Below are positions 38,234 to 54,565 of a stretch of 64,000 nucleotides of DNA, piece after piece. The DNA comes from Shigella phage ESh26. The position numbers were made by a program, and so were the translations under genes. Within the stretch, counting starts at the first letter, position 1. The number at the start of each line of letters is the position of its first letter. Location of the stretch: the sequence record ON528736; one strand, written 5' to 3'. The notes beneath the pieces are model-generated. The model saw only the letters and a program-made list of their open reading frames with translations, was not told the DNA's origin and searched no databases.

Positions 38234-38446
38234 TCATTTTTGTCCTGTATTTACTTTATGCCGATGCACGGCCTTAACTTTATCAAGGTATTTTTCAAAA
38301 TTTCGCAATCTAGTATAGTCTGCCGGAGATTGGTTGAGTGATACTTCTCGACGCAAAGCTGAAATGATATTTCCAACTTCCCTACGAATTTCATCTAATT
38401 GAAGAACAGTAAGATTGCGAAGTTGCTTTTCAGTTAATTGTAGCAT
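38234..38446 (-). CDS. hypothetical protein
   Basis: 70 aa ORF between tk and rI. Confidence 0.45.
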
Positions 38447-38488
38447 ATATACCCCTTTAGTTAGATAAACCTATTTATAACTTTTGCA

Positions 38489-39070
38489 CTAACCGAGCTT
38501 TTTAGTTAATTCATTCCAATGTTTTCTACACAAAGAAACATAAATTTCATCACCAATACAGATTTGATTGCCTTCTTTAACTGGTGTTCCATCTTCCATT
38601 AATCGAGCTGTCATAATAGCTTTTTTACCACAATGACAAACTGCTTTTAGTTCAATAAGTTTATCTGCAATCGCCAAAAGTTCTTTAGAACCTTCAAATA
38701 ATTTTCCAGCGAAATCAGTCCTTAGCCCATAAGCCATAACAGGAACATTATATGTATCAACAATTCGGCTTAATTGATGCACCTGTTCAGTTTTTAAAAA
38801 CTGGGCTTCATCTACAAATACACAATGAATATCTTTTTGTGCTTCAGCCCATTTATAGAACTCAAAAATATCCATATCATCCGTAATAATATTCGCTTCC
38901 TGTTTAATTCCAATGCGAGAAACGACTTCACAGACAGAATCGCGAGTATCAATAGCAGGCTTAAGAACTAATACACCCATTCCGCGTTCTTTATAATTAT
39001 GCGCAGCAGTCAAAAGAGAAGCAGATTTTCCAGCATTCATTGCTGCATAAGTAAAAATTAAACTCGCCAT
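38489..39070 (-). CDS. tk: thymidine kinase
   Basis: 193 aa, P-loop AMNAGKS, C-terminal Zn ribbon. Confidence 0.9.
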   Translation of the reverse strand: MASLIFTYAAMNAGKSASLLTAAHNYKERGMGVLVLKPAIDTRDSVCEVVSRIGIKQEANIITDDMDIFEFYKWAEAQKDIHCVFVDEAQFLKTEQVHQLSRIVDTYNVPVMAYGLRTDFAGKLFEGSKELLAIADKLIELKAVCHCGKKAIMTARLMEDGTPVKEGNQICIGDEIYVSLCRKHWNELTKKLG

Positions 39071-39079
39071 ATCACCTTC

Positions 39080-39265
39080 TTAAAGCGTATTCACATAAGC
39101 TATTAATTCGTTTTCTTTCTTATCAAACCGATCAGCAAATTCTTCCTGTTGTTCGGGAGATAGCGGGCCGTATTCATCATAAAAGGTGTTTGCTTCTGTA
39201 TGCTCATCTAGAAGTTCATGGATAAGCTCAAACAATTTATCTTTTTGTTCTTTGCTTAGGCTCAC
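39080..39265 (-). CDS. small acidic protein
   Basis: 61 aa ORF. Confidence 0.4.
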   Translation of the reverse strand: MSLSKEQKDKLFELIHELLDEHTEANTFYDEYGPLSPEQQEEFADRFDKKENELIAYVNTL

Positions 39266-39434
39266 AGTATGTCAATCCCCAAAAGTTTTAAAATGACTCG
39301 TTTCTGATTCATAACCGCTACGATTGAATGACCGTTGGGGTCTTTTTGACCCGATCCAATTATAAATCCTTTTTGTGCAGAAAGTTCAATCAAAACATCG
39401 AGTTCACGTAATAGTTGATATTTTAAATCATCAT

Positions 39435-39662
39435 TCATTTTGGTTTACCTTCTTTAACGAAATCAGGATAAGGATAAAATCCTGAATAAAATCCTTCACC
39501 TTTATGATTGATGCATCCTTTATTAGAACAATAGCACCAATAATCGAAATCACAAGCCATTTCATCATTACATAAAGCAAAAACAACCGGCCATTCACAC
39601 TTTTCGCAGTGGGCATTTTTAAGAATACTAGTTTGGCTCATAACCATGTAACCTTTAAGCAA
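39435..39662 (-). CDS. Cys-rich small protein
   Basis: 75 aa, 9 Cys. Confidence 0.4.
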   Translation of the reverse strand: MLKGYMVMSQTSILKNAHCEKCEWPVVFALCNDEMACDFDYWCYCSNKGCINHKGEGFYSGFYPYPDFVKEGKPK

Positions 39663-39850
39663 TATTCTTCTACGTGCTGTTTACGACCTTTCTTATCAAT
39701 AAAGGTATATTCAACGAATGTTCCAATATAGTCTTTATCTACATCATGTGGACTATTAATTGGACATTTAGTACGGCAAATGCGTTCCCATTGACGAATA
39801 ATTTCCACTTTGTTTTTAGGATCAAACGGATGCGGGTAATGTACTTTCAT
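39638..39850 (-). CDS. hypothetical protein
   Basis: 70 aa ORF. Confidence 0.4.
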   Translation of the reverse strand: MKVHYPHPFDPKNKVEIIRQWERICRTKCPINSPHDVDKDYIGTFVEYTFIDKKGRKQHVEEYCLKVTWL

Positions 39851-40301
39851 AATCCACCACTATTAAATCAATATCAGGAGTAAACATGTCGATTAATTTA
39901 GAAACCTTATCCCAATCGCCGCCAGCAATACCGCAACCTATGCGTGGAATGTAAATTACTGGTTTAAACAAAAGGGTTTCTGCCTGTAGATTTAATTCTA
40001 TCATGCAGTTTACTAAAGCACCATAATCAAGATTAGGACCCGGTTCGTATTGCGTATACAAATTATAGCACATACTAAATCCTGTAGGATTATGTTTAAA
40101 AACAATAGACATATCGCCTAATTTATCACGAGAACCGTACTCGGTAGTGGTTTTATCTATTTCTAAAATTTTGGGATAGGCTCTTGCTAATTGACCTGCT
40201 ACGCCAGAGCCCATTGTGTGAAAGCAATTGCACCCGTGCGCAATAATATTACCTTGAAGAAATAGGGCGACAATATCGCCCTTGATATATTTTACAATCA
40301 T
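39822..40301 (-). CDS. macrodomain-like protein (ADP-ribose binding/processing fold)
   Basis: 159 aa; KGDIVA...IIAHGCNCFHTMGSGVAGQLARAYP and IYIPRIGCGIAGGDW align by eye to macrodomain motifs. Confidence 0.5.
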   Translation of the reverse strand: MIVKYIKGDIVALFLQGNIIAHGCNCFHTMGSGVAGQLARAYPKILEIDKTTTEYGSRDKLGDMSIVFKHNPTGFSMCYNLYTQYEPGPNLDYGALVNCMIELNLQAETLLFKPVIYIPRIGCGIAGGDWDKVSKLIDMFTPDIDLIVVDYESTLPASV

Positions 40302-40639
40302 CTAGTACTCAATCCTCGATTATAAGAATCTACTAAACGGTCAACCATTGAATGACAAGCGGCTTTATCTTTCTCCTCCGCAACTGAACATTCTAAGGTA
40401 TTCCACTTTTTAGCATATCGTTTTAACAATGTATCATTTTTGTATCTGCTTGATTTATCTCTTTCTCCGTCTTTATATGCATATATTAATTTCTGTGCAA
40501 ATTCAGCTTGGCATGCTTTATTTTTCCCACAATAATCCGCGGCGGTACGGTTTACATACTCTCTAATTTCAGTATATGATGTATCTGCTAACGCAGAAAA
40601 TGAAATTAATCCTATACATAAAACCAAAATTTTAGTCAT
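40298..40639 (-). CDS. secreted protein (signal peptide)
   Basis: 113 aa, MTKILVLCIGLISFSALA. Confidence 0.45.
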   Translation of the reverse strand: MTKILVLCIGLISFSALADTSYTEIREYVNRTAADYCGKNKACQAEFAQKLIYAYKDGERDKSSRYKNDTLLKRYAKKWNTLECSVAEEKDKAACHSMVDRLVDSYNRGLSTR

Positions 40640-41177
40640 TTACTATTTCCAAAAGTTTATTATTTTTAAGGTAATTAGCCTTTTCTAGGACTTCAGAAGC
40701 ATATTTAGAACCTGCTTTAACATTCCATCCCGAATTATAAGAGGATATTGCTTTTCTTATATCACCCTTATGTATATTTAACCAATAAGAAAGTTCAATG
40801 TACGCCCAGGAAGCTGAATTGGACCGTTTATTCAACATTCTTTTTATTTCAGCATCGGTCATATTATAACCAAGTTCCTTGACTCTCGCTCGCATAGTAG
40901 GCAAATAATTTTGGAACATTCCATAGGCATGATGCTTTGGTTTAGATTTTAAATTAACTCCGGCAGAGCTTTCTTGCCATAAAATAGCAGCCATTATATG
41001 ACCCAATCCGCTCTTGTGGATATTTTTGTGTGTTTTATATTTTCCATCCTTAGAAAATTGTTCCCCGAATTGATATGCGTAGCGCATGTTATCGAGTTGG
41101 ACATTACTGAAAGTATGCTCGGAGCTATGTGCCATCATTGAAATGGCCAATAGACCAGCGAGTAGTGCTTTTCTCAT
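40632..41177 (-). CDS. periplasmic lytic transglycosylase-like (SLT domain) protein
   Basis: 181 aa, signal peptide, WQESSAG...AYGMFQ resembles SLT catalytic motifs. Confidence 0.5.
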   Translation of the reverse strand: MRKALLAGLLAISMMAHSSEHTFSNVQLDNMRYAYQFGEQFSKDGKYKTHKNIHKSGLGHIMAAILWQESSAGVNLKSKPKHHAYGMFQNYLPTMRARVKELGYNMTDAEIKRMLNKRSNSASWAYIELSYWLNIHKGDIRKAISSYNSGWNVKAGSKYASEVLEKANYLKNNKLLEIVND

Positions 41178-41184
41178 GCTTACC

Positions 41185-41646
41185 TCATTGAGTTTTAATT
41201 ACTGCTTTAGAAGCCTTTCCTGGTAAACGACGACTGTTGATAATTGCCATCCTACATTGAAGCGACGGGTCTTTGAACTTCGCATTAGGTTTACAAACTG
41301 TAAATCCAAGCCAAAGATTTCCATCTGTGATTTCTAAACGTCCAGGGCGATATTCAACCCCATCAATAAAATCCTCGTCAATGTCAGGACGCGGAGGCAT
41401 ACTCAGGAATTCATTAACTTCTAAAACATGGTCTTTTATTTTGTGGAATAATTCAAAAACATATGTCTCATCAATCTCCCGTTGAATTGCACGATCAAGA
41501 AGATGCTGAGAATATTTTAGATGAAACGATGAGACCCCTGCTGCTTTTGATGCCTCACGAATCTCATTGTTAATTTGACGAAACTCCGACTCAAAGTGAC
41601 GACGAAGCTTATTTCGACGGATAAAAACTTCTGTGTTGATAGTCAT
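41185..41646 (-). CDS. regB: RegB endoribonuclease
   Basis: 153 aa MTINTEVFIRRNKLRRHFESEF..., matches recalled T4 RegB. Confidence 0.8.
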   Translation of the reverse strand: MTINTEVFIRRNKLRRHFESEFRQINNEIREASKAAGVSSFHLKYSQHLLDRAIQREIDETYVFELFHKIKDHVLEVNEFLSMPPRPDIDEDFIDGVEYRPGRLEITDGNLWLGFTVCKPNAKFKDPSLQCRMAIINSRRLPGKASKAVIKTQ

Positions 41647-41671
41647 GTTATTCTCCTCTTAACTGATAGAA

Positions 41672-41703
41672 AAATTATACCACAGTCAAGAGGAAAAGTA
41701 AAC
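41672..41703 (-). promoter_or_regulatory. T4-type early promoter (regB)
   Basis: GTTTAC -35, TGTGGTATAAT extended -10. Confidence 0.65.
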
Positions 41704-41705
41704 AG

Positions 41706-41984
41706 TTATTCTTTAAATCTAATCAATTTATTCATAGACTTTGAAACTTCTGCACGGACCTCATGTAGGTTTTTAAGCTGTTCAAGACGCTGCTCATAGT
41801 AAGCAATTTCATCTTCTTCGAGACAGTCCTGTGAATCTTCTTTAAGATAACGTGCATAATCCTGGAAAGCTTTACGGACTACTTCTTGGAAGTCATCAAG
41901 ACTTTGAATTTTCTTAGGAGCAACAGATACACGACGAGGGGCAGTATAATACTCATAACCAAACCCTGCGCTTAATTGAGCCAT
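41706..41984 (-). CDS. hypothetical protein
   Basis: 92 aa from internal ATG ([13 protein letters not shown]). Confidence 0.35.
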
Positions 41985-42250
41985 TAATATTTTTCCTCTG
42001 GTTGGAACACAGCACGACAAGCCCACATACTGGCTTCTTTGAGTTTCGTTTTAGCAATAGTTAACTGATCGAGGCTTTCAGCATAATTCTTCGCGAATTC
42101 ACAGTCTTCACAATTATCTAGTGCTTCCCAAAATTCATCGTATAAAGCGTCAAAGATAAGTCCTAAACGAACTTCAGCGTCTTTGATAGCATTCACTTTA
42201 CCGATTTTCTCTTCAGTGTGCGGCTTATAACCTTTAATGTCTTCAATCAT
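41984..42250 (-). CDS. vs.4-position protein, candidate Acb2-like cyclic-nucleotide sponge
   Basis: 88 aa from ATG 42248-42250 with GAGGAAG SD; assignment by synteny and size only. Confidence 0.35.
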
Positions 42251-42464
42251 ATTTGACTTCCTCACCAGTACATAAATCATATTCAACTAAACGAATAGGT
42301 TCATGAATGCCATATCCTTGAACAGAAATTTCTGTCGTAGGATAAATTCCATCAATATCACCCATGGTCCACGCTTCATTAAATTGCTGTTCGCCTGAAT
42401 TACTAAACCACTCGGCGAAAGCATTTAACACATCTTTAGAACCTTCAATAATTATCTTTGCCAT
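42243..42464 (-). CDS. hypothetical protein
   Basis: 73 aa ORF. Confidence 0.4.
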   Translation of the reverse strand: MAKIIIEGSKDVLNAFAEWFSNSGEQQFNEAWTMGDIDGIYPTTEISVQGYGIHEPIRLVEYDLCTGEEVKYD

Positions 42465-45346: not shown

Positions 45347-45802
45347 TTAAAAGAGGCTGTTCATTATTCGGTAAAGTGAAGGGCCCATCACATATTGCCA
45401 CTGAGTACGAGGAATAAGAGCAAAAGCATCCATCTCTGGAATCATAACGCCATCTTTATTTTCAAAATAAGACTCGCAATGGCAATTTCTGAACATCTCA
45501 TGCTCTACTGGAATCGTATAATAAAATAACTGTAAGTCTTTATTACTAGAATATTTAAATACACCTAGGTCTTCTAGAAGGTCTGGATTATAATTGTTAA
45601 AACCAGTCTCTTCTGAGCATTCTCTTCGTGCTGCATCTAATGCGCTTAAATCAGAATTTTCTACACGCCCCTTTGGAATATCCCAGCGATGTGCCATCAT
45701 TCCAGGCTTACGAGAACCAGTAACTCGTCCCATAAATAAATCTTTATCTTCTGTCATAAAGATAATACCAGCTGATAATGTTTTCATTTTAATTTCCTGC
45801 AT
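45347..45802 (-). CDS. nudE: Nudix hydrolase NudE
   Basis: 151 aa, Nudix box GRVENSDLSALDAARRECSEETG. Confidence 0.8.
   Translation of the reverse strand: MQEIKMKTLSAGIIFMTEDKDLFMGRVTGSRKPGMMAHRWDIPKGRVENSDLSALDAARRECSEETGFNNYNPDLLEDLGVFKYSSNKDLQLFYYTIPVEHEMFRNCHCESYFENKDGVMIPEMDAFALIPRTQWQYVMGPSLYRIMNSLF

Positions 45803-53868: not shown

Positions 53869-54565
<697 letters not shown>

What the first reader, a model, noticed from the sequence alone, without database searches (positions are those of the whole stretch)
39822..40301. Macrodomain-like protein upstream of tk
The 159 aa ORF has KGDIVA...IIAHGCNCFHTMGSGVAGQLARAYP and IYIPRIGCGIAGGDW, which align by eye to the macrodomain Gly-rich phosphate-binding motifs, with HGCNC replacing NAAN. 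A phage macrodomain could reverse ADP-ribosylation of DNA or protein (for example by DarT-like toxins) or process ADP-ribose-derived defence signals.
Basis: partly seen in the sequence, partly recalled or inferred. Interest (0 to 1): 0.5.

Follow-up and report, generated by a model that had tools for sequence, protein, structure and literature searches.

The report
T4-like phage tk.4/AdfM macrodomain gene
This is the already-known tk.4 (adfM) gene of a T4-like phage, a small macrodomain enzyme that most likely strips ADP-ribose off phage DNA to defeat the bacterial DarTG2 defence; here it is a common but divergent allele, so the finding is correct but ordinary.

Summary

The window is a Tequatrovirus. 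The gene sits between vs and tk.3, so it is the positional ortholog of T4 tk.4. A 2025 preprint renamed T4 tk.4 as adfM because its knock-out makes T4 sensitive to DarTG2.

Three refinements:
- **Divergent allele.** The protein is only 58% identical to T4 Tk.4, while flanking genes are 93-100% identical. It is a sharply bounded allele cassette, about as common in sequenced phages as the T4 type.
- **Catalytic residue.** The catalytic position holds an invariant Gln (Q84), as in SCO6735. DarG, TARG1 and PhiKZ AdfM have Lys there.
- **A rival function.** The same phage family (PHROG 335) includes Adpp, a proven ADP-ribose-1''-phosphate phosphatase of NARP1 operons, 39% identical. A genome carrying the identical protein has no NARP1 genes, which argues against that role.

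No enzyme activity has been measured for either T-even allele. Novelty is low.

The parts
39822..40301 (-). tk.4 / adfM-type gene: stand-alone 159-aa macrodomain protein
40197..40238 (-). Loop 1 of the ADP-ribose pocket, H22-GCNCFHTMGSG-V-A35. H22, G23, N25, C26, G33 and A35 are invariant in the family.
   Evidence: Translation. Invariant columns. N25 aligns with SCO6735 N27, DarG N22 and PhiKZ AdfM N23, whose mutation lowers activity. H22 aligns with SCO6735 H24 and Poa1p H23.
40050..40064 (-). N80-L-Y-T-Q84: strand end carrying the catalytic-position residue, here Gln
   Evidence: Translation. Q84 aligns with TARG1 K84 and the Bt_1257 Gln in the profile alignment. In MAFFT it aligns with SCO6735 Q85 and DarG K80. 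Q84 is invariant in 58 homologs.
39912..39947 (-). Loop 2 (phosphate-binding loop), P119-RIGCGIAGGD-W130
   Evidence: Translation. G122 and G124 align with SCO6735 G126 and G128 (G128E lowers activity). P119, G122, G124 and W130 are invariant.
40298..40301 (-). ATGA overlap of the vs stop codon with the tk.4 start codon. Translational coupling is inferred from it.
   Evidence: Sequence and ORF ends. The junction is identical in T4, T2 and Sfk20.
39810..40263 (.). Variable allele cassette. Nucleotide identity to T4 falls from 97-100% in the flanks to 48-80% inside.
   Evidence: Sliding-window identity. Flanking proteins are 93-100% identical to T4 against 58% for Tk.4. The 5' boundary lies at the first base after the hairpin.
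40264..40282 (-). 8-bp GC-rich hairpin (AGGGCGAU-AUU-GUCGCCCU) in codons 7-12. It is invariant between alleles and marks the 5' edge of the cassette. Its function is unknown.
   Evidence: Terminator-like scan, alignment and fold. The fold z-score is only -1.0, so it may mean nothing.
40298..40639 (-). vs (valyl-tRNA synthetase modifier), the upstream neighbour that defines synteny
   Evidence: 97% identical to T4 Vs. PHROG 1256.
39638..39850 (-). tk.3, the downstream neighbour. Its start overlaps the tk.4 3' end by 29 nt.
   Evidence: 93% identical to T4 Tk.3. ORF coordinates.
41674..41702 (-). Promoter-like site (TTTACT-17-TATAAT with an extended TG) upstream of regB. It is a possible start of the regB-vs.1-vs-tk.4 transcription unit.
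   Evidence: Consensus scan only. The number of such sites in the region is not above the shuffled expectation, so this is a lead and not a finding.

Best explanation
The ORF is the tk.4 (adfM) gene of a T4-like phage. It encodes a stand-alone macrodomain hydrolase of the ALC1-like class.

Proposed mechanism:
1. The gene is made early in infection, probably as part of the regB-vs.1-vs-tk.4 unit, with translation coupled to vs through an ATGA overlap (inferred).
2. The two Gly-rich loops (H22-A35 and P119-W130) hold the diphosphate and distal ribose of ADP-ribose (inferred from fold and alignment).
3. N25 positions Q84, which orients the distal ribose so that a water molecule cleaves the C1''-N glycosidic bond. 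This follows the Gln-type mechanism proposed for SCO6735, not the Lys mechanism of DarG and TARG1.
4. The substrate most likely to matter in vivo is thymidine-linked ADP-ribose, placed on single-stranded phage DNA at TNTC motifs by DarT2 of host DarTG2 systems. Removing it lets replication proceed, so the phage carries its own 'orphan antitoxin'.

Shown here: the ORF, the fold, the conserved residues, synteny with T4 tk.4, and the absence of NARP1 partner genes. Taken from the literature: the T4 tk.4 knock-out phenotype on DarTG2, and thymidine-ADPr hydrolysis by the Gln-type enzyme SCO6735. Inferred: that this 58%-identical allele does the same.
For: Identity and synteny:
- The window is a Tequatrovirus, with the region 99.1% identical to phage A6-6.
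- The gene lies between vs and tk.3, exactly as T4 tk.4 does.
- It is 58% identical to T4 Tk.4 over 155 aa, E 8e-71.

Fold and class:
- Pfam Macro is above its cut-off.
- AF2 pLDDT is 94.9.

Active-site residues:
- Every SCO6735 residue whose mutation reduces or abolishes thymidine-ADPr-DNA hydrolysis without unfolding the protein (N27, Q85, G128) is present and invariant: N25, Q84, G124.

Literature:
- T4 tk.4 was the only significant HIDEN-SEQ hit on DarTG2, and its knock-out sensitises T4.
- T2, which carries the T4-type allele, and T4 stay DarTG2-resistant without adfN and adfA.

Against the Adpp rival:
- No Adps or Namat homolog exists in the window or in the whole Sfk20 genome, which encodes the identical protein. 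Best E was 0.88, while positive controls gave 1e-13 to 0.
- In a rough NJ tree the window and T4 alleles share one Tevenvirinae clade, and Adpp falls outside it.
Against: - No enzymatic assay exists for T4 AdfM or for this allele. The DarTG2 phenotype is genetic and comes from a preprint.
- This allele differs from T4's at 42% of positions, including the phosphate loop (IGCGIAGGDW here against IGAGIGKGNW in T4).
- A 39%-identical relative with the same invariant residues is a proven ADPR-1''-P phosphatase, so conserved residues cannot assign the substrate.
- The basic residue SCO6735 uses to position DNA (K34) is Ser or Ala in the Tk.4 clade, and the long 'mobile loop' is absent.
- No phage with the window-type allele has been tested on DarTG2.
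Confidence: 0.6

Rival explanations
1. It is an ADP-ribose-1''-phosphate phosphatase, like phage Adpp and yeast Poa1p. It would convert ADPR-1P, made by RES-domain NADases such as the aRES defence, back to ADPR. That would either detoxify the metabolite or feed NAD+ rebuilding.
For: - It belongs to the same PHROG 335 'phosphatase' family as Vibrio phage Gary Adpp (KNV71_gp137), with 39% identity and E 1e-26.
- Adpp is biochemically shown to make ADPR from ADPR-1P.
- The H-x-C-N-C...G-x-G motif is most like Poa1p, with an N-terminal-half match at E 1.8e-9.
- The phosphate loop IGCGIAGGDWD is nearly identical to Adpp's IGCGLAGGDWD.
- RefSeq annotates T4 tk.4 as 'phosphatase; contains A1pp phosphatase motif'.
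Against: - Adpp is useful because it sits inside NARP1 operons, between or beside Adps and Namat. Neither gene exists in the window or in a complete genome with the identical protein.
- Adpp proteins have a 15-residue loop after the Gln and a basic residue at position 32. The T-even clade has 8 residues and Ser or Ala.
- The T4 ortholog's only known phenotype is on DarTG2.
- Both activities could coexist in one pocket.
Confidence: 0.2
2. It reverses ADP-ribosylation of protein or RNA rather than DNA. Candidate sources are host defence transferases such as the mRNA ADP-ribosyltransferase CmdT, or the phage's own Alt, ModA and ModB enzymes.
For: - TARG1, SCO6735 and Poa1p-type macrodomains act on several ADP-ribosylated substrates; SCO6735 also de-modifies PARP1.
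- A genome with the identical protein encodes the Alt and Mod transferases.
- CmdTAC targets T-even phages (abstract).
Against: - The CmdTAC paper mentions macrodomains only in its reference list and never mentions tk.4.
- T4 Alt, ModA and ModB modify arginine, a linkage macrodomains are not known to cleave (background knowledge, not tested here).
Confidence: 0.08
3. It acts mainly without catalysis, by binding and blocking DarT2, or by binding or degrading ADP-ribose-derived immune signals such as those of Thoeris.
For: - Catalytically dead SCO6735 (Q85A) still inhibits DarT by interaction.
- The sharply bounded allele replacement would fit selection on a protein-protein interface.
Against: - All residues needed for catalysis are invariant across 58 homologs down to 40% identity. 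That argues for an enzyme.
- The DarT-binding C-terminal domain of DarG is absent (159 aa; NCBIfam DarG 28.9 bits against a cut-off of 250).
- No evidence links this family to Thoeris.
Confidence: 0.05

Closest known systems
Phage T4 Tk.4 = AdfM (anti-DarT factor Macrodomain), bioRxiv 10.1101/2025.11.20.689424
   Same: Same locus between vs and tk.3, with the same ATGA coupling to vs. Similar length (155 against 159 aa). Same PHROG 335. All 14 family-invariant residues are shared, including N25 and Q84, and the loop after the Gln is the same 8 residues.
   Different: Only 58% identical, while the neighbours are 93-100% identical. The phosphate loop is AGG here and GKG in T4. This allele has four extra C-terminal residues that overlap tk.3 by 29 nt. 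The DarTG2 phenotype has been tested only for the T4 allele.
Adpp, the ADPR-1''-P phosphatase of NARP1-AP operons (Vibrio phage Gary KNV71_gp137), bioRxiv 10.64898/2026.01.28.702374
   Same: Same PHROG 335. 39% identity, E 1e-26. Gln at the catalytic position, the H-x-C-N-C motif, and a near-identical phosphate loop.
   Different: Adpp lies between Adps and Namat, whereas no NARP1 genes accompany the window gene. Adpp has a 15-residue loop after the Gln and Arg at position 32, against 8 residues and Ser here.
SCO6735 (Streptomyces coelicolor) and Bt_1257, the Gln-type subclass of ALC1-like macrodomains (PMC9411070)
   Different: About 25% identity. The 5-6-residue longer 'mobile loop' that defines this subclass is missing, and the DNA-positioning Lys34 is Ser. 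These are cellular proteins, not phage proteins.
DarG antitoxin macrodomain (T. aquaticus, M. tuberculosis)
   Different: DarG has Lys80 where this protein has Gln84. DarG has a C-terminal DarT-binding domain and an adjacent darT gene, both absent here. The NCBIfam DarG score of 28.9 is far below its cut-off of 250.
PhiKZ gp104, 'AdfM' of chimalliviruses (Cell Rep 2026, PMC13309987)
   Same: A phage-encoded stand-alone macrodomain that counters DarTG2. It is shown in vitro to remove DarT2 ADP-ribose from DNA, and it also falls in PHROG 335.
   Different: Barely alignable by BLASTP (E 0.001 over 33 aa). It is DarG-like, with Lys at the catalytic position (FPTKDNW), and groups with DarG in the tree. 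The shared name covers two separate lineages.
Yeast Poa1p (ADP-ribose 1''-phosphate phosphatase) and human TARG1
   Different: At the catalytic position Poa1p has Ser and TARG1 has Lys84, with Asp125 where this protein has Ala126.

Membership tests
Macrodomain (Pfam PF01661) | Profile match above the curated gathering score | tested here: met
   33.8 bits against a cut-off of 22, E 3.7e-8, residues 22-136 on profile positions 2-117 of 118.
Macrodomain (Pfam PF01661) | Three-layer alpha/beta/alpha macro fold | tested here: met
Macrodomain (Pfam PF01661) | Binds ADP-ribose | not testable with these tools
   Only the conserved Gly-rich loops could be checked.
ALC1-like macrodomain class (TARG1 / DarG / SCO6735 / Poa1p) | Closest structural and sequence relatives all belong to this class | tested here: met
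T4 Tk.4 / AdfM (T-even anti-DarTG2 factor) | Position between vs and tk.3 in a Tequatrovirus genome | tested here: met
   The junction with vs is identical to T4 and T2.
T4 Tk.4 / AdfM (T-even anti-DarTG2 factor) | Full-length homology to T4 Tk.4 | tested here: met
   58% identity over 155 aa without gaps, E 8e-71. Same subclade in the NJ tree.
T4 Tk.4 / AdfM (T-even anti-DarTG2 factor) | Required for growth on a DarTG2 host | not testable with these tools
   Shown only for the T4 allele.
DarG antitoxin (NCBIfam NF048014 equivalog) | Score above the curated cut-off; two-domain protein of about 340 aa | tested here: not met
   28.9 bits against a cut-off of 250. Only the macro part of the profile (positions 2-142 of 338) is matched. 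PADLOC DarG gives E 3.4e-7 on the same part.
DarG antitoxin (NCBIfam NF048014 equivalog) | Catalytic lysine (K80 in T. aquaticus DarG) | tested here: not met
   Gln84 occupies that column.
DarG antitoxin (NCBIfam NF048014 equivalog) | Adjacent darT toxin gene | tested here: not met
   The neighbours are vs and tk.3.
SCO6735 / Bt_1257 Gln-type subclass | Gln at the catalytic position, held by the conserved Asn | tested here: met
   Q84 and N25 are both invariant in 58 homologs.
SCO6735 / Bt_1257 Gln-type subclass | Mobile loop five residues longer than in DarG and TARG1 | tested here: not met
   The loop is 8 residues here, against 13-14 in SCO6735 and Bt_1257.
Adpp (NARP1-associated ADPR-1P phosphatase) | Gene located within or next to an Adps-Namat (NARP1) operon | tested here: not met
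   No Adps or Namat homolog in the window or in the full Sfk20 genome (E >= 0.88). Controls found them in L002 and L003.
Adpp (NARP1-associated ADPR-1P phosphatase) | Hydrolyses ADPR-1''-phosphate to ADPR | not testable with these tools
   Sequence relatedness only: 39% identity.

The most novel reading that the evidence does not exclude
The two deeply diverged tk.4 alleles that alternate at one locus in otherwise near-identical Tequatrovirus genomes (58% identical protein, sharp boundaries, both common) may be specificity variants kept by an arms race. The window-type allele, whose phosphate loop matches Adpp and the family consensus, might prefer a different ADP-ribose adduct than T4 AdfM does. 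Candidates are another DarT2 clade's product, ADPR-1''-P from aRES-like NADases, or RNA-linked ADP-ribose. Alternatively, it may escape a host factor that recognises the T4-type protein.
Probability: 0.15. Interest if true: 0.55.

Novelty: already known. Interest (0 to 1): 0.2.

Why it matters
As a discovery it matters little. Macro domains in T4-like phages have been annotated for about two decades, and the anti-DarTG2 role of T4 tk.4 was reported in 2025.

What is useful is the caution it gives for annotation. One phage protein family (PHROG 335, labelled 'phosphatase') now holds three kinds of member:
- T4 AdfM, which has a DNA-repair-like anti-DarTG2 phenotype.
- Adpp, which has proven ADPR-1''-P phosphatase activity against aRES.
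- PhiKZ AdfM, a Lys-type DarG-like enzyme that received the same name independently.

The T-even proteins use Gln, not the DarG lysine. 'Orphan DarG antitoxin' is therefore a functional analogy and not a description of descent or mechanism. The allele cassette offers a ready natural experiment on substrate or toxin specificity.

Tried and rejected
- **DarG membership** was rejected. The NCBIfam score is far below its cut-off, there is no C-terminal domain, there is no catalytic Lys, and there is no darT neighbour.
It was rebuilt without that row.
- **The promoter and terminator scan** gave counts no higher than shuffled sequence: 11 against 14.4±3.7, and 4 against 2.1±1.8. Expression signals therefore remain inference.
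- **The 5' hairpin** folds no better than shuffles, z -1.0.
- **The PhiKZ 'AdfM' comparison** showed almost no direct similarity, E 0.001. Its in-vitro data cannot simply be transferred to this protein.
- **The NARP1 search**, the Adpp context test, was negative.
- **The original DarTG phage-defence paper** (PMC9250638) is not held.
- **The aRES preprint text** gives no data on T-even phages.
- **The CmdTAC paper** has no link to tk.4.
- **Not attempted:** dN/dS between the alleles, because synonymous sites are saturated at about 60% nucleotide identity.

Full report
**Observation.** The ORF lister returns 39822..40301 on the minus strand: ATG start, 159 aa, with the three quoted peptide stretches (motif coordinates verified). 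The start codon overlaps the stop codon of the upstream gene in an ATGA (40298-40301). The 3' end overlaps the next ORF by 29 nt.

**What the window is.** Megablast of 38400-41700 finds 830 phage records, nearly all T4-like. The best is 99.1% identical (Escherichia phage A6-6), and annotations read thymidine kinase, RegB and valyl-tRNA synthetase modifier. Against the T4 reference, the order on the minus strand is regB 41185-41646, vs.1 40632-41177, vs 40298-40639, the ORF, tk.3 39638-39850, three small ORFs, then tk 38489-39070. The ORF is therefore the positional ortholog of T4 tk.4. RefSeq already annotates T4 tk.4 as 'phosphatase; contains A1pp phosphatase motif'.

**Is it a macrodomain?** Yes.
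- Pfam Macro scores 33.8 bits against a gathering score of 22.
- PHROG 335 matches at E 4e-71.
- phmmer against PDB sequences finds Bt_1257 (1e-10), yeast Poa1p, SCO6735, M. tuberculosis DarG and TARG1.
- A profile of 58 homologs raises these to E 1e-19 to 4e-12.
- AlphaFold2 on that alignment gives pLDDT 94.9 and pTM 0.89. Only the last nine residues are uncertain.

The protein thus belongs to the ALC1-like class.

**Active site.** Across 58 homologs down to 40% identity, the invariant residues are H22, G23, N25, C26, G33, A35, D49, N80, Y82, Q84, P119, G122, G124 and W130. I recovered the real sequences of the solved relatives from printed alignments and aligned them.
- Q84 sits in the column of TARG1 K84, DarG K80 and SCO6735 Q85.
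- N25 matches SCO6735 N27 and DarG N22.
- G122 and G124 match SCO6735 G126 and G128.
- H22 matches SCO6735 H24 and Poa1p H23.

The SCO6735 study shows that this Gln-type enzyme removes DarT-made ADP-ribose from thymidine in DNA. In that study Q85A abolishes activity, and N27S and G128E greatly reduce it. The T-even protein differs from SCO6735 and Bt_1257 in two ways. It lacks their 5-6-residue longer 'mobile loop', and it has Ser where they have the DNA-contacting Lys34. So it is a Gln-type enzyme with a DarG/TARG1-length loop.

**What is known about function.** A November 2025 preprint (HIDEN-SEQ) found tk.4 as the single significant T4 gene required on a DarTG2 host, confirmed this with a clean knock-out, and named it adfM. 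Enzymatic removal of ADP-ribose from DNA was inferred, not measured. Earlier work had shown that T2 and T4 stay DarTG2-resistant without adfA and adfN, and predicted a further factor. T2 carries the T4-type allele. Independently, a 2026 Cell Reports paper gave the same name to PhiKZ gp104 and showed in vitro that it removes DarT2 ADP-ribose from DNA. That protein is DarG-like with Lys (FPTKDNW). It is barely alignable to the window protein and groups with DarG in a rough tree.

**A rival that emerged from context.** In the spread of tblastn hits, relatives of 33-38% identity lay beside 'ribose-phosphate pyrophosphokinase' and 'nicotinamide phosphoribosyl transferase'. In Vibrio phages Pontus and Gary and in Acinetobacter phage Rocket, the macro gene sits inside or beside that pair. 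A January 2026 preprint identifies exactly this protein (Gary KNV71_gp137, Adpp) as an ADPR-1''-phosphate phosphatase. It lets the NARP1 pathway rebuild NAD+ after cleavage by the aRES defence. Adpp is 39% identical to the window protein (E 1e-26) and 35% identical to T4 Tk.4. It is in the same PHROG and shares every invariant residue, including the Gln. Residues therefore cannot tell the two activities apart.

Context can. tblastn with Gary Adps and Namat found nothing in the window or in the complete genome of Shigella phage Sfk20, whose protein is 100% identical to the window's. Best E was 0.88, while the same queries found distant homologs in the control loci at 1e-13 and 5e-95. Adpp proteins also have a 15-residue loop after the Gln and a basic residue at position 32, unlike the T-even clade, and they branch outside it. 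I therefore favour the AdfM role (0.6) over an Adpp-like role (0.2). The pocket may well do both reactions.

**The allele.** The protein is only 58% identical to T4 Tk.4. By contrast Tk, Tk.3, Vs, Vs.1 and RegB are 93-100% identical. Nucleotide identity to T4 is 97-100% on both sides and 48-80% between about 39810 and 40263. The 5' boundary falls at the first base after an invariant 8-bp hairpin in codons 7-12. About 284 phage records carry the window-type allele at full length with at least 90% nucleotide identity. By protein, 312 records are at least 90% identical to the window type, against 224 for the T4 type. Intermediate alleles of 75-85% also exist. This looks like cassette exchange at a counter-defence locus. 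Whether the alleles differ in specificity is untested, and that is the most novel reading left open.

**Verdict.** The macrodomain is annotated in many phage records as 'macro domain protein', 'Poa1p_like family protein' or 'phosphatase', and the anti-DarTG2 role is published for T4. The added points are modest: a Gln-type catalytic position, two unrelated lineages both named AdfM, a family shared with Adpp, and a sharply bounded allele polymorphism. Interest 0.2.

Noticed in passing
window 39080-39662 (-): The tk.1/tk.2 interval differs from T4. It holds three small ORFs of 61, 58 and 75 aa (PHROGs 653, 3452 and 2306, all of unknown function). Only the 61-aa ORF resembles T4 Tk.2 (52%). The 75-aa ORF (39435-39662) is a Cys/His-rich 'Phage zinc binding domain' protein (Pfam PF23895, E 4e-29). 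This makes a second variable patch next to the tk.4 cassette.
   Followed up: partly
window 40264-40282 (-): A perfect 8-bp GC-rich hairpin lies inside codons 7-12 of tk.4. It is identical in T4, T2 and Sfk20, and allele divergence begins at the very next base. The fold is no more stable than shuffled sequence (z -1.0), so it may be only a recombination boundary or chance.
   Followed up: partly
L002 3501-3971; L003 3504-3980; L004 2501-2977: Relatives of the window protein (34-39% identical) sit inside NARP1 NAD+-rebuilding operons, as Adps-macro-Namat or Adps-x-Namat-macro. The phages are unrelated to each other: Vibrio Thalassavirus and an Acinetobacter myovirus. In all three loci an RNA ligase or phosphoesterase gene lies nearby.
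   Followed up: yes
literature: The name AdfM has been given independently to two different proteins. T4 Tk.4 is Gln-type and is the family of the window protein. PhiKZ gp104 is Lys-type and DarG-like. The two share only marginal BLASTP similarity (E 0.001).
   Followed up: yes
window 45347-45802 (-) and 53869-54324 (-): The window also encodes a Nudix hydrolase at the position of T4 NudE, which could consume the ADP-ribose released by the macrodomain. It also encodes Acb1, the anti-CBASS nuclease (Pfam PF23474, E 3e-60). Several counter-defence or nucleotide-scavenging genes therefore lie within 15 kb.
   Followed up: no
window 40632-41177 (-): Vs.1, two genes upstream, has a signal-peptide-like N-terminus and a weak SLT lytic-transglycosylase domain match (Pfam E 5e-5). 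It is annotated only as hypothetical in T4.
   Followed up: no
window 41984-42464 (-) versus T4 vs.4/vs.5: The ORF at the vs.5 position (42243-42464, 73 aa) matches T4 Vs.5 over only 18 residues. This is another small replaced segment in the regB-denV interval.
   Followed up: no
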